Assembly (NCBI GenBank): GCA_965656495.1
Contig: CBFHKU010000001.1
Location: forward strand, 242,781 to 306,780
DNA length: 64,000 bases
Reading direction: 5' to 3'
DNA from: Coraliomargaritaceae bacterium
GTDB lineage: Bacteria; Verrucomicrobiota; Verrucomicrobiia; Opitutales; Coraliomargaritaceae
Shown here one piece after another: positions 3,001 through 5,656 of the stretch. Positions within the stretch are counted from its first letter, which is position 1; each line of letters opens with the position of its first letter. Made by a program: the position numbers.

Positions 3001-5656
3001 CCGGAACGTCGCCTCACCAAGCACAAGCACATCAAGAAGGGACGCAACTGCTACGGACGCATTACTTCCCGTCGCCGTGGTGGCGGCCACAAGCGCGCCT
3101 ATCGCATCATCGATTTCCGTCGCGACAAAATCGACATCCCCGCCAAGGTGCAGGCCATCGAGTACGATCCCAATCGTTCCGCCAACCTGGCCCTCCTCGC
3201 TTACGCAGATGGCGAAAAACGTTACATCCTCGCCCCTCGCGGCGTCCAGGCGGGTGACGTTCTCCTCAATGTTGACAAGCGCGTTGAGTTCAAGCCCGGC
3301 TATTCCATGCCGCTGAGCTTCATTCCGGCAGCCACCAAAATTCATGCCATTGAGCTCCACCCCGGTCGCGGCGCCCAAATCGCCCGTTCCGCCGGACAAA
3401 ACGCCCAACTCATTTCCGTGGAAGGCGACCGTGCCACTGTTAAATTACCGTCCGGTGAAATCCGTTACTTGAACTCCAAGTGCCGTGCCACCATCGGTGA
3501 GGTCGGCAACCACGAACACCAAAACCAGAGCCTTGGCAAAGCCGGCCGCAACCGTTGGTTGGGTCGTCGTCCCCGCGTCCGCGGTGTTGCCATGAATCCC
3601 GTCGATCACCCCATGGGTGGTGGTGAGGGTCGTACCTCCGGTGGCGGTCATCCCCAGTCGCCCTGGGGTCAGCTCTCCAAAGGATTCCCGACCCGCAAAA
3701 AGTCCAATCCTACCAATTCTCAAATTCTGGTGCGCCGCAACGGTCGCCCCATGAAGCGCAAATAATCAAACGAGATTCTTCTTATGTCACGCTCCGTTAA
3801 AAAAGGATTCTTCGTCGATCCCCACCTTGCCAAAAAAGTGGATGCCGCTCAGGCCAGCAATGACCGCAAGCCTATCCAGACTTGGTCACGACGCTCTACC
3901 ATCACCCCCGATTTCGTGGGACTCAACTTCAATGTCCATAACGGCCGCAGCTTCCTGCCCGTCTATGTCACTGAAAACATGGTGGGCCACAAGCTCGGCG
4001 AGTTTGCTCCCACCCGCACCTTCAAGTCGCACCAAGCCGGTAAGAAATAACCCTGCCGCGAACCGATAAACACTCACCTTTCATGCACACCCGTCTCCCA
4101 ATGCACCAAGCCCTGATCGCCGGCCTCATCGCCGTCGCGACCGCTTTGCCCTGCATCGGGACCGCTGCGCAACCCGCCTTCATCGCCGAAGGCCTCTATA
4201 CTCCCAACGCCGCACCCGTCGCGGAAGTTCTGGCCGGTGAAGATACCGACCTCGTGGTCATCGAAGGGGGACTGCTCCAAGGCCTGCGCCGGGGTATGAT
4301 CTGCCGCATCGAACGCGGTGACCGCACCGTCGGAGAGGTTCTCATCATCGCCTCCCGCGAACAGCGCGCCGCCGCTCTCATCCTTCAAATCGCACGCGAG
4401 ACCACCATCCAATCCGGTGATATCGCACGCATTAAGACTTTTCAAAACTCATAACCCTTCATCAAAATGCAGGTTCAAGCTTATACCAAATACGCCCGGA
4501 TGTCGCCCGTTAAAGTGCGCGACATAACCCGCGCCATCCAAGGACGCAATGCCGCCGAGGCAGTCGAAATCCTCCGCTTCATTCCGCGCAAATCGGCACG
4601 ACTTGTCAGCAAGACCCTCAAGTCCGCCATCGCGAACGCTGAAAACAACAACAACCTTTCCTCCGACGCGCTCACCATTCAGTCCGCAACGGTCGAACAA
4701 GGCCCCGCCTTTAAACGTTTCCGCCCCGCAGCACGCGGTTCCGCGCACCCTTACAAAAAGGCCACCAGCCATATTCGCATCATCCTCACAGACGACGCCT
4801 AAACCAAATTGCTTAACTAAAACTCATGGGACAAAAAACGCATCCAACCGGCTTCCGCCTAGCAGTCACCCGCGACTGGGATTCCCGCTGGTACGCCAGC
4901 AAAAAAGACTTCCCCGGCTACCTTAAGGAAGACCACACCATTCGTACCTTCCTCGAGAAGAAACTGCGCTACGCCTCGGTGCCCCGCATCTTCATCGAGC
5001 GCGCCTCGGGTCGTATCCGCGTTAAAATTCACACGGCCCGCCCGGGCGTCGTGATCGGTCGCAAGGGCCAGGAACTCGATAAGCTCAAGGCTCAACTCAA
5101 CAAGAAGGTCGGCAAGGACATCATGCTCGACATTCAGGAAGTCAAGCGCCCCGACCTCTCCGCCCAACTGGTTGCTGAAAACGTTGCCCTGCAACTGGAG
5201 CGACGCATCGCCTTCCGCCGCGCCATGAAACGCGCCGTGCAAACAACCATGGCGATGGGTGCCGAGGGTATTCGTATTCAATGCAGCGGTCGCCTCGGTG
5301 GCGCCGACATCGCCCGCACCGAGCAACAACGCGAGGGCAAGGTTCCCCTCCAAACCCTCCGCGCGAAAATCGACTACGGCTTCAGCGAAGCCAGCACCGT
5401 TTACGGCATCATTGGCATCAAATGCTGGATCTGCCTCCCCGAGGACGACTCCGAATAATCCAATCTTTTTTTAATTTAAAATAAACTTTCCACACCGCGA
5501 ATCATGGCACTACTTCCATCACGCACCAAATACCGCAAGGTTCACAAAGGCCGCATTTACGGCACCGCTCAAAAAGGCAACAGCCTCGCCTTTGGCGAAT
5601 TCGGTATTCAGTCCCTTTCCCGTGGACGTATGACCTCCCAACAAATTGAAGCTGCC

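What a model noticed while it worked through the whole genome (the two positions that open the first line are those of the whole stretch)
4083..4454. A signal-peptide beta-barrel gene wedged between rpsS and rplV in the S10 ribosomal operon across Opitutales
Between the genes of ribosomal proteins S19 and L22, a junction that is almost never interrupted in bacteria, lies g00215 (123 aa): an N-terminal hydrophobic signal/anchor helix followed by a confidently modelled six-strand beta-barrel with no family assignment. I read it as an envelope protein (MreC/FlgT-like barrel) whose dose is hard-wired to ribosome synthesis by co-transcription with the S10 operon, a link between growth rate and cell-envelope building in this order. 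New would be a conserved non-ribosomal, exported passenger inside the S10 operon and a new small protein family.
Evidence so far: g00215 lies at C1:246863-247234(+), 32 nt after rpsS (g00214 ends 246830) and 12 nt before rplV (g00216 starts 247247), same strand. No Pfam, NCBIfam or Swiss-Prot row; no Pfam at E 1e-3. tblastn-type search: match in 66 of 151 Opitutales genomes sampled, 38 of 89 genera, 7 of 7 Coraliomargaritaceae sampled. Position: the S19 gene (PF00203) was located in the same 151 genomes (148 with a match, call 191); in 64 of the 65 other genomes that have a g00215 match, that match lies on the same contig and strand 29-321 nt downstream of the S19 match; the one exception is the weakest hit (E 9e-4). 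phmmer over 1.84 billion representatives: 217 proteins E<=1e-3, nearly all 104-190 aa. AlphaFold (60-se [...]
(Added by a program. Inside this text positions count along the whole contig: contig position 242,781 is position 1 of the stretch shown here. "Call 12" and the like, gene names such as g00115 and contig names such as C1 are that model's own, and its searches are not shown. The text may have been shortened before it was handed on; [...] marks where a part breaks off. The agent that wrote the report below was given it as the finding of a first reader that could run no searches.)

Follow-up and report, generated by a model that had tools for sequence, protein, structure and literature searches.

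The report
Exported barrel protein gene before rplV
A real, conserved gene for a small, apparently exported beta-barrel protein sits between ribosomal protein genes S19 and L22; it looks like the shortened local version of an unnamed protein found at that spot across the whole phylum Verrucomicrobiota, and its function is unknown.

Summary
Window 4083-4454(+) is a 123-aa gene, 32 nt after rpsS and 12 nt before rplV. It is under purifying selection (dN/dS 0.12-0.21) and has no Pfam or NCBIfam family. Its parts are a signal-peptide-like N-end, a conserved P-x-F motif, and a six-strand barrel modelled at pLDDT 96-98.

The scope is wider than the finder thought. In 44 of 44 loci from 24 other families of the class, and in 17 of 20 loci from other classes of the phylum, a longer homologue lies just before rplV. 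It has an N-terminal hydrophobic anchor or signal, a coiled coil and the same barrel (hhalign 98.8%). Akkermansia is among these lineages. The Opitutales form has lost the coiled coil. About half of the Opitutales sampled lack the gene, with only 35-215 nt between the S19 and L22 matches.

The fold is closest to the FlgT C-domain (Z 10.1), then to ATPase crown barrels and MreC. No family threshold is met, and the genome has its own MreC elsewhere.

My best reading is a Sec-exported periplasmic binding or scaffold module, co-transcribed with the S10 operon. Function and growth-rate coupling remain inferred.

This scan flagged the same family at least eight times before on other genomes. My literature searches found no published description.

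The parts
843..3765 (+). Upstream S10-operon genes: rpsJ (843-1151), rplC (1304-1948), rplD (1972-2607), rplW (about 2609-2899), rplB (2920-3765)
   Evidence: Pfam S10, L3, L4, L23, L2 above cut-off; ORF list
3784..4050 (+). rpsS (ribosomal protein S19)
   Evidence: PF00203 E 9.9e-37; located by the genome search at G000:C1:246570-246812
4051..4082 (+). 32-nt spacer between rpsS and the inserted gene; no promoter-like or terminator-like site
   Evidence: Sequence. The consensus scan of 1-13000 found no site between 4050 and 4470 on the + strand. No Rfam match
4083..4454 (+). The inserted gene (123 aa + stop): short Opitutales form of the Verrucomicrobiota 'before-rplV' barrel protein
4083..4172 (+). 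Residues 1-30: signal-peptide-like N-end. R4 comes first, then a hydrophobic core A10-G26, then T-A-A-Q before the conserved P31
   Evidence: Translation. 70 of 74 family members have a strongly hydrophobic 11-aa window in the first 45 aa, and 61 of 74 are net positive before it. This is my own heuristic; no SignalP was available
4173..4181 (+). Residues 31-33, the P-A-F motif at or near the predicted mature N-terminus
   Evidence: P31 is nearly invariant in A1. P-x-[FWIL] follows the hydrophobic core in 63 of 74 members
4203..4442 (+). Residues 41-120: six-strand beta-barrel. Conserved D56, G63, G67, G71, L99-I100, G112-D113
   Evidence: AlphaFold pLDDT 96-98, strands 43-50, 57-60, 73-78, 81-91, 96-103, 114-117. 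Conservation. hhalign to the long forms over residues 41-118
4455..4466 (+). 12-nt spacer before rplV
   Evidence: Sequence. A 250-nt contig from an RNA library spans 4297-4546
4467..4802 (+). rplV (ribosomal protein L22)
   Evidence: PF00237 E 5.6e-35
4826..6474 (+). Downstream S10-operon genes: rpsC (4826-5458), rplP (5504-5920), rpmC (5957-6160), rpsQ (6181-6474)
   Evidence: Pfam S3, L16, L29, S17

Best explanation
The gene encodes a small Sec-exported periplasmic protein made of one six-strand beta-barrel. It is transcribed as part of the S10 ribosomal operon.

It is the positional and sequence homologue of a protein found throughout Verrucomicrobiota directly upstream of rplV. That longer form has an N-terminal anchor or signal, a long coiled coil and the same barrel. 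The Opitutales lineage kept the signal peptide and barrel, lost the coiled coil, and gained a conserved P-x-F motif at the new mature N-end.

Barrels of this shape (FlgT C-domain, MreC, the crowns of F1/V1 ATPases and HerA) serve as protein-protein docking or ring-forming modules. I therefore infer that it binds another envelope component in the periplasm: a cell-wall synthesis factor or an envelope-spanning machine.

Its place in the operon means it is made whenever S19 and L22 are made.

Shown: the gene is real, conserved and selected; its position; homology between short and long forms; the fold class.

Inferred: export, co-transcription, and the binding or scaffold role.
For: Real and selected:
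- 217 relatives at E<=1e-3.
- dN/dS 0.12-0.21.

Position in Opitutales:
- 81 of 81 directly after S19 and 89 of 90 directly before L22.

Same position elsewhere:
- 44 of 44 loci from 24 other GTDB families of the class have a homologous ORF between S19 and L22; mechanical calls give 207-362 aa.
- 17 of 20 loci from other classes have it upstream of L22: 16 within about 120 nt and one 460 nt away.

Homology of short and long forms:
- hhalign probability 98.8%, E 8.7e-17 over 76 columns.
- The short-form profile hits the long forms at E 1e-17 to 1e-10.

Export:
- Hydrophobic N-end in 70 of 74 short forms and 41 of 44 long forms; 61 of 74 are net positive before it.
- Small residues such as A-x-A lie just before the conserved P-x-F.

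Not ribosomal:
- Within one genus the protein is 49-96% identical while S19, L22, L2 and S3 are 93-100% identical.

Co-transcription:
- Gaps of 32 and 12 nt, with no promoter-like or terminator-like site.
- One contig from a metatranscriptome library spans 4297-4546, across the junction with rplV.

Fold:
- VIA Z 10.1, rmsd 2.4, 76 residues to the FlgT C-domain in the LPHT ring 8z5n.
- Z 8.3-9.8 to ATPase, HerA and FliI N-terminal barrels.
- Z 7.3-7.9 to MreC.
- Weak FlgT_C Pfam hits in 2 of 74 short forms and 3 of 6 long forms.
Against: - No experiment or localisation predictor was available. The signal-peptide call rests on my own hydrophobicity and charge heuristic.
- RNA evidence is thin. 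All runs were assembled contigs from RNA libraries that may hold DNA. At 95% identity most of the gene was uncovered, and only one 250-nt contig bridges to rplV.
- Fold matches are generic. Foldseek found nothing at E<=0.001. VIA's best Z of 10.1 is only moderately above the 7-8 that such models typically reach, and unrelated cytoplasmic barrels score nearly as well.
- No Pfam threshold is met.
- The gene is absent from roughly half of the Opitutales sampled, with S19-L22 gaps of 35-215 nt in the 42 genomes that lack a strong match (E<=2.3e-9) and have both flanks listed. Any role is therefore dispensable there.
- One outside-class homologue (L100, 134 aa) shows no hydrophobic N-end.
Confidence: 0.55

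Rival explanations
1. Frozen accident. The protein does an envelope job unrelated to ribosomes. Its gene landed before rplV in an ancestor of Verrucomicrobiota and stays there only because it has no promoter of its own and precise excision is rare. On this view the coupling to ribosome synthesis has no adaptive meaning.
For: - It was lost cleanly many times or in large clades. Whole Opitutales families score 0 of 9 or 0 of 10 while others score 9 of 9 or 10 of 10.
- Only 35-215 nt is left between the S19 and L22 matches.
- It evolves fast compared with its neighbours.
- Paralogues with the same architecture live elsewhere in some genomes, away from ribosomal genes (L042, L043, L093, L097, L102).
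- In Gammaproteobacteria and Bacilli, inserted genes are often lost again (PMC8046335, passages read).
Against: - Retention at one exact junction across a phylum is long for a neutral passenger.
- In 7 of 17 outside-class loci the operon is broken upstream of the gene, yet the gene still sits with rplV.
Confidence: 0.25
2. Cytoplasmic ribosome- or translation-associated factor. The hydrophobic N-end is not a signal peptide, and the barrel binds the ribosome, L22 or RNA. That would explain the fixed place in front of rplV.
For: - The position directly before rplV is conserved phylum-wide, even where S19 is no longer upstream.
- Small barrels of translation factors (EF-Tu/SelB/IF2 domain II types, eRF3, Gar1) appear among VIA matches at Z 6.1-6.9.
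Against: - Hydrophobic N-end with the positive charge in front in most members, and an anchor plus coiled coil in the long forms.
- 49-96% identity within one genus against 93-100% for the ribosomal proteins.
- Absent from half of the order.
- The translation-factor barrels score below FlgT, ATPase crowns and MreC.
Confidence: 0.08
3. Secretion-monitoring leader. Translation and export of this upstream ORF modulate translation of rplV and the genes behind it. This would resemble SecM-secA, MifM-yidC2 and VemP-secDF2, where an exported nascent chain stalls in the ribosomal tunnel (these systems are recalled, not retrieved here).
For: - An exported-looking ORF lies 12 nt upstream of rplV.
- The linkage to rplV is kept when the operon is split before the ORF.
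Against: - The whole barrel is under purifying selection and folds confidently to its last strand. The known monitors, as recalled, rely on a short arrest motif.
- The mRNA of 4040-4480 shows no unusual structure that could mask the rplV start: z = +0.27, and 62 of 100 shuffles fold at least as well.
- rplV is expressed without it in half of Opitutales.
Confidence: 0.04

Closest known systems
FlgT C-terminal domain (Pfam PF16538; PDB 3w1e; FlgT in the Vibrio LPHT ring 8z5n)
   Same: - Best structural match: VIA Z 10.1, rmsd 2.4 A, 76 residues, covering model 38-119 and chain 287-377.
- Foldseek top rows 8z5n and 3w1e at E 5e-3 to 8e-3.
- Shared D-x-V-x-L-x-x-G-x-x-x-G-x-x-x-G motif, with sub-threshold FlgT_C hits in 2 of 74 short and 3 of 6 long forms.
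- FlgT is periplasmic (recalled).
   Different: - No hit reaches Pfam's 27-bit cut-off, and the window protein itself gives no FlgT_C hit at E<=10.
- FlgT is a three-domain flagellar ring protein of about 350 aa. This is a single barrel of about 90 mature residues.
- The family occurs in Akkermansia, which as recalled is non-motile.
MreC (Pfam PF04085; PDB 7eft, 6zlv, 2qf4, 2j5u)
   Same: - The long forms share MreC's overall plan of an N-terminal anchor, a coiled coil and a periplasmic barrel.
- Barrel similarity: Z 6.9-7.9.
- Profile against PDB sequences: E 0.58 to 7eft.
- One JGI source name for a close homologue reads 'cell shape-determining protein MreC'.
   Different: - The Pfam MreC model is hit by 1 of 74 members at E 0.022 and not by the window protein.
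- One barrel rather than MreC's two lobes (recalled), and no coiled coil in the short form.
- The genome has a genuine MreC at G000:C3:120198-120656, 94.5 bits.
TsaP-type FlgT-like domains of type IV pilus secretin rings (PDB 6ve2 chain O, 'LysM domain-containing protein'; 3jc8 chain Ta). The identification of these chains as TsaP is recalled.
   Same: - Best sequence-profile hit in the PDB: E 0.23, aligning profile positions 44-79.
- VIA Z 6.6 to 3jc8_Ta.
- A periplasmic ring-forming accessory protein (recalled).
   Different: - The E-value is not significant.
- There is no LysM domain.
- No link to secretin genes was seen here.
Non-ribosomal passengers of ribosomal operons (secY, adk, map, infA in spc; rpoA in alpha)
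   Same: - A non-ribosomal gene kept inside a ribosomal protein operon over long evolutionary time.
- secY follows rplO in this window (10664-12172; the gene name is recalled from the sequence).
   Different: - Those passengers are, as recalled, near-universal and essential, and lie in spc or alpha.
- This one is phylum-restricted, fast-evolving and repeatedly lost.
- It encodes an exported protein and sits inside S10 between rpsS and rplV.

Membership tests
FlgT_C (PF16538) | Match to the Pfam model at or above its 27-bit gathering score | tested here: not met
   The window protein has no FlgT_C hit at E<=10. 2 of 74 family members hit at best E 0.0059. 3 of 6 long or paralogous forms hit at E 0.0011-0.059 with 14-20 bits
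FlgT_C (PF16538) | Six-strand barrel fold of the FlgT C-domain | tested here: met
   VIA Z 10.1, rmsd 2.4, 76 residues aligned to 8z5n_5 residues 287-377. ATPase crown barrels score nearly as high (Z 8.3-9.8), so the fold class is shared more widely
FlgT (flagellar H-ring protein) | Three-domain architecture and association with flagellar genes | tested here: not met
   Single domain of 123 aa. The neighbours are ribosomal protein genes
MreC (PF04085) | Match to the Pfam or NCBIfam MreC model | tested here: not met
   No hit for the window protein. 1 of 74 members hits at E 0.022. The genome's real MreC is at G000:C3:120198-120656, 94.5 bits
MreC (PF04085) | Membrane anchor + coiled coil + periplasmic barrel core | tested here: not met
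   The short form has no coiled coil. The long forms of other orders do have an anchor, a coiled coil and one barrel but still miss the MreC model
Sec (type I) signal peptide | Positive n-region, hydrophobic h-region of about 10-20 aa, small residues at -3/-1 | tested here: met
   R4, core A10-G26, T-A-A-Q before P31. 70 of 74 members have the hydrophobic window and 61 of 74 are net positive before it. This is my own heuristic; SignalP or DeepTMHMM was not available, and cleavage is untested
Lipoprotein (type II signal, lipobox) | Conserved L-[AS]-[GA]-C lipobox | tested here: not met
   The window has A-L-P-C. The cysteine is not conserved in the 74-row alignment
S10 operon member (co-transcribed gene) | Same strand, short spacers, no internal promoter or terminator, transcript spanning the junctions | tested here: inconclusive
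   Anatomy is met: 32-nt and 12-nt spacers and no consensus sites. Transcript evidence is one 250-nt contig from an RNA library across the junction with rplV. The rpsS side is bridged by only 28 nt, and DNA carry-over is not excluded
Verrucomicrobiota 'before-rplV' coiled-coil/barrel family (unnamed) | Homologous barrel and a position directly upstream of rplV | tested here: met
   hhalign 98.8%, E 8.7e-17. Position in 44 of 44 class loci and 17 of 20 outside-class loci
Ribosomal protein | Match to any ribosomal protein family; conservation comparable with the neighbouring genes | tested here: not met
   No family hit. 49-96% identity within the genus against 93-100% for S19, L22, L2 and S3

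The most novel reading that the evidence does not exclude
The linkage to rplV is selected, not accidental. Verrucomicrobiota would meter a periplasmic docking or scaffold protein to ribosome output by making it from the S10 transcript. Envelope or cell-wall construction would then be tied stoichiometrically to growth rate. The Opitutales short form would be a streamlined version that kept only the docking barrel. The gene stays glued to rplV even where the operon is broken just upstream of it (7 of 17 outside-class loci), which fits this reading.
Probability: 0.2. Interest if true: 0.8.

Novelty: new variant of a known kind. Interest (0 to 1): 0.58.

Why it matters
The S10 operon has one of the most fixed gene orders in bacteria. 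A phylum-wide exception would be unusual: a gene for an exported, non-ribosomal protein at one exact junction.

It also offers a simple phylogenetic marker for Verrucomicrobiota. The family has no name or Pfam model, yet it is present in Akkermansia, a genus of medical interest with a published genetic system (title seen only in a reference list).

If the coupling to ribosome synthesis is functional, it would be a hard-wired link between growth rate and envelope building. If not, it is a clean case of how a passenger gene becomes trapped in, and later lost from, an essential operon. Here that includes domain loss in one order and clean deletions in many lineages.

Tried and rejected
- Self-association: ESMFold2-based complex prediction with two copies of residues 29-123 and the 74-row alignment gave no verdict (score 0.01, mark 0.42). 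This is no evidence either way.
- Foldseek against the PDB: nothing at E<=0.001.
- Profile against PDB sequences: nothing below E 0.23.
- Rfam on 1-13000: no match.
- RNA structure: window 4040-4480 folds no better than shuffles (z +0.27). An earlier scan note claimed a conserved RNA structure inside the coding sequence in another lineage; I see no such signal here. I made no covariation test.
- PVC 'signature protein' CT421.2 (53-80 aa) looked like a possible identity. Passages in PMC3444138 and PMC2474590 describe a different, shorter protein and do not mention S19 or L22.
- Akkermansia experimental data: the supplement of PMC4960237 held as text has no S19 or L22 rows. Davey et al. 2023 (transposon library) is not held by DOI or PMC id. 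I could therefore not look up essentiality or localisation of the Akkermansia homologue. Those supplements may bear on the function.
With the single protein it found only 3 close MAG loci titled 'Opitutia/Opitutae bacterium'.
- RNA runs: at 95% identity most of the gene had no cover in any of 4 metatranscriptome runs, although the flanking ribosomal genes were covered. This probably reflects the fast divergence of this gene among strains and is not evidence about expression.
- Neighbours of the paralogues elsewhere (5 loci): no recurrent envelope gene. A TP_methylase-family gene lies downstream in the 2 Opitutales loci only.
- ESM Atlas: the nearest clusters are unnamed Verrucomicrobiota proteins. 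A FlgT_C-bearing cluster appears only at score 0.83, which is a lead only.
- Barrel tree: only the quick tree finished (86 columns, 101 rows). The short forms form one group (SH-aLRT 99) on a long branch. The tree is unrooted and too short to order events.
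Full report
**What is there.**
The window carries fusA (3' part), rpsJ, rplC, rplD, rplW, rplB, rpsS, the gene in question, rplV, rpsC, rplP, rpmC and rpsQ on the + strand. All flanking genes are confirmed by Pfam above cut-off.

The gene runs 4083-4454 (123 aa, ATG start). It lies 32 nt after the rpsS stop and 12 nt before the rplV start. A consensus scan of 1-13000 found no promoter-like or terminator-like site between 4050 and 4470 on the + strand. Rfam found nothing.

The window is G000:C1:242781-306780. The finder's contig coordinates are therefore right, but its note 'subtract 210780' is wrong; the offset is 242780.

**Is it a real gene?**
Yes, on four lines of evidence:
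- phmmer over 1.84 billion representatives returns 217 proteins at E<=1e-3 and 60 at E<=1e-10. Most of the 150 listed are 100-190 aa long.
- A 74-row alignment shows invariant G63 and G71, and nearly invariant P31, D56, G67, L99, I100, G112 and D113.
- Nei-Gojobori dN/dS for seven informative pairs of relatives is 0.12-0.21; an eighth pair was saturated.
- GC3 is 0.69, within the 0.63-0.74 of the neighbouring ribosomal genes. That argues against a recent foreign insert.

The genome holds a single copy.

**Position in the order.**
I searched 201 sampled genomes of the GTDB order with a profile of the alignment.
- 102 genomes have a match. 96 of these have a strong one (E<=2.3e-9). The other 6 have only weak matches in roughly 220-460-aa frames.
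- By genus the count is 52 of 103, and the window's own family scores 9 of 9.
- The S19 place was listed for 81 of the 96 genomes. In 81 of 81 the match is on the same contig and strand, 23-306 nt downstream.
- The L22 place was listed for 90 matches. 89 lie 21-88 nt upstream of it. The exception is G132, where the locus appears split over two contig ends.

The distance between the S19 and L22 Pfam matches separates two groups cleanly:
- 381-642 nt (median 436) in 74 genomes with the gene.
- 35-215 nt in 42 genomes without a strong match and with both flanks listed.

The shortest family member I saw is 113 aa, so those 42 genomes have no room for it. There the gene is absent, not merely diverged.

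Presence follows families:
- With the gene: f1 9/9, f2 10/10, f3 10/10, f12 9/9, f17 9/9, f22 7/7.
- Without it: f4 0/10, f8 0/10, f18 0/9, f20 0/9, f24 0/9, f29 0/5. This group includes families with genomes of 0.8-1.0 Mb.

**The finding is wider than the order.**
In a class-level sample, 235 of 301 genomes match the short-form profile at E<=1e-5. Outside the order the matches lie at the C-terminal end of frames of about 240-300 aa.

I fetched 44 such loci, one to five from each of 24 GTDB families. They were chosen from the 150 best rows listed, so weaker matches are not represented. In 44 of 44 the matching ORF lies between S19 and L22 on the same strand, with L2 upstream and S3 downstream. 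Mechanical ORF calls are 207-362 aa, and some are over-extended into S19. In L060 the contig ends inside L22.

These proteins have a hydrophobic N-end (41 of 44), a long stretch that Pfam reads only as assorted coiled-coil families, and the same barrel at the C-end. Source names place one of these genera as Akkermansia, where every named homologue is 'hypothetical protein'.

In a phylum-level sample, 144 of 301 genomes match at E<=1e-3. I fetched 20 loci from 15 families outside the class, again chosen from the listed rows.
- 17 have the ORF upstream of rplV: 16 within about 120 nt, and L103 460 nt away.
- 10 of the 17 have S19 in front.
- In the other 7 the gene upstream is unrelated or none is recognisable. 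The operon is broken just before this gene, yet the gene stays with rplV.
- The other 3 loci (L093, L097, L102) are 285-298-aa anchor + coiled-coil + barrel proteins elsewhere in the genome. The second matches in some Opitutales (L042, L043) are of the same kind.
- Large families of the phylum sample score near zero (f102 1/48, f108 0/15, f107 0/9), so the family is not universal in the phylum as GTDB draws it.

A profile-profile comparison of the short forms with 14 outside-class long forms gives probability 98.8% and E 8.7e-17 over 76 columns, query residues 41-118.

On a quick maximum-likelihood tree of the barrels (101 rows, 86 columns), the 35 Opitutales short forms form one group (SH-aLRT 99) on a long branch. 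The 5 'elsewhere' paralogues form another group (SH-aLRT 90). The tree is unrooted and poorly resolved.

Taken together, the ancestor of the order most likely had the long form at this junction. Opitutales lost the coiled coil once, and many of its lineages later lost the gene.

Intermediate forms of 179-187 aa occur in L015-L020 and L027 (families f12 and f16). They have a signal peptide and an acidic segment of about 60 aa before the P-x-F motif.

**What the protein looks like.**
Residues 1-30 read as a Sec signal: R4, hydrophobic core A10-G26, then T-A-A-Q.
- 70 of 74 members have a strongly hydrophobic 11-aa window in the first 45 residues.
- 61 of 74 are net positive before it.
- 63 of 74 then show P-x-[FWIL], usually 2-4 residues after an A-x-A-like site.

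This is my own heuristic, since no signal-peptide predictor was available. The cysteine in A-L-P-C is not conserved, so it is not a lipoprotein family.

AlphaFold gives mean pLDDT 88.1, 96-98 over residues 41-120, and six strands.

Fold and family comparisons:
- Foldseek against the PDB finds nothing at E<=0.001. Its top rows are the Vibrio LPHT ring (FlgT), alanine racemase C-domains, MreC, FlgT and F1-ATPase N-barrels.
- VIA-align against 48,161 chains puts the FlgT C-domain of 8z5n first (Z 10.1, rmsd 2.4, 76 residues).
- Next come V1/F1 ATPase, HerA and FliI N-terminal barrels (Z 8.3-9.8), then MreC (Z 6.9-7.9), then a type IV pilus machine chain (3jc8_Ta, Z 6.6).
- At sequence level the best PDB profile hits are insignificant: 6ve2_O at E 0.23 and MreC 7eft at E 0.58.
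- Only 2 of 74 members touch FlgT_C (best E 0.0059) and 1 touches MreC (E 0.022), all below Pfam's cut-offs.
- The genome has a proper MreC elsewhere.
- The ESM Atlas returns only unnamed Verrucomicrobiota clusters at 0.95-0.96.

So the fold class is known, but the family is not.

**Expression.**
Four metatranscriptome runs hold near-identical sequence. Laid at 95% identity, they cover the flanking ribosomal genes but little of this gene.
- One 250-nt contig (run X1) spans 4297-4546, from inside the gene into rplV.
- One 4450-nt contig (X4) runs from rplB through rpsS to 4110. That is 28 nt into the gene, which is below the tool's 31-letter rule for bridging.

These are assembled contigs from RNA libraries and could include DNA. 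I count this as weak support for co-transcription, which otherwise rests on the anatomy.

**How it most likely works.**
The conserved signal, the anchor and coiled coil of the long forms, and the positive charge before the hydrophobic core all point to export. So does a rate of change far above that of the neighbouring genes: 49-96% identity within one genus against 93-100% for S19, L22, L2 and S3. I read it as an exported periplasmic protein, not a ribosomal one.

Barrels of this class act as docking or ring-forming modules in FlgT, MreC and ATPase crowns; that generalisation is recalled, not tested here. I therefore infer a periplasmic binding or scaffold role.

The operon position guarantees synthesis alongside S19 and L22. 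Whether that coupling is used or is a frozen accident is open. The repeated clean losses speak for dispensability. The persistent linkage to rplV, even where the operon is split upstream, speaks for some constraint.

A self-association test gave no verdict.

**Literature.**
Three searches found no description of a gene between rpsS and rplV in Verrucomicrobia:
- 'S10 operon / Verrucomicrobia / rpsS / rplV'.
- 'signature protein / PVC superphylum / ribosomal'.
- 'S10-spc / ribosomal protein gene cluster / non-ribosomal / inserted'.

I saw listings only, plus passages of PMC3444138, PMC2474590 and PMC8046335. The last documents insertions mostly between, rather than within, these operons in Gammaproteobacteria and Bacilli.

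**Earlier notes of this scan.**
After forming the above reading I looked up earlier notes. At least eight describe the same family on other genomes, one of them the short Opitutales form. They are AI notes and not independent evidence. They agree on the position, the export reading and FlgT-C as the closest fold.

**Verdict.**
The function is still unknown.

Noticed in passing
finding text (offset note): The finding's note says contig position 210781 is window position 1. The genome search gives the window as G000:C1:242781-306780. The start and end fields and the contig coordinates of the genes are nevertheless consistent with each other.
   Followed up: yes
L042:1464-2264(-), L043:1488-2264(-), L093:1052-1906(+), L097:1695-2552(-), L102:1053-1946(+): Paralogues of the barrel family, 259-298 aa with a membrane anchor, long coiled coil and barrel, lie away from ribosomal genes in some Verrucomicrobiota. 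In the two Opitutales loci a TP_methylase-family gene of 233-246 aa lies just downstream on the same strand. The other three loci have no recurrent neighbour.
   Followed up: partly
L015-L020 and L027 (GTDB families f12 and f16 of the order): Intermediate forms of 179-187 aa sit between S19 and L22. They have a signal peptide, an acidic segment of about 60 aa (motif A-R-F-D...D-F-E-G-x-W-A-E), then P-x-F and the barrel. They may be a stage between the long and short forms, or a secondary insertion.
   Followed up: no
Opitutales genomes G004, G079, G140, G026, G092, G113, G150, G100, G055, G190, G083, G125: These genomes lack the gene but have 103-215 nt between the S19 and L22 Pfam matches, against 35-88 nt in the other 30 genomes without it. 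The extra DNA could be remnants of the deleted gene. G004 (215 nt) belongs to a genus in which two other genomes have the gene.
   Followed up: no
L094, L095, L096, L099, L100, L103, L104 (other classes of the phylum): S19 and L2 are not upstream of the gene in these loci. Unrelated ORFs or no recognisable gene precede it, while L22 and S3 follow. The S10 operon is split exactly in front of this gene in these lineages.
   Followed up: partly
L087:1699-2217(-): The ORF called from ATG/GTG/TTG lacks a hydrophobic N-end. The open frame continues 132 nt upstream and there encodes a hydrophobic segment (…GWWIAGGLLVAALAGAGGWW…) with a CTG codon near its beginning, suggesting a non-canonical start. 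L100 (134 aa) has no such extension and seems to lack an anchor.
   Followed up: partly
window 42-1151: The 3' part of fusA (EF-G domains III, IV and C) ends at 821 and rpsJ starts at 843. No tuf gene lies between them, unlike the classic str-operon order (recalled).
   Followed up: no
G082, G103, G124, G192 (one genus of the order): The six-frame profile match is reported with one TAA inside. It probably arises where the profile's N-terminal part was aligned upstream across the S19 stop codon. Four other genomes of the genus show none.
   Followed up: no
G132:C92:17448-17687 and G132:C227:145-402: This genome has two copies of the gene. One follows S19 on one contig and the other precedes L22 near the start of another contig. 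This is most simply one locus split by the assembly, or two strains (contamination 4%).
   Followed up: no
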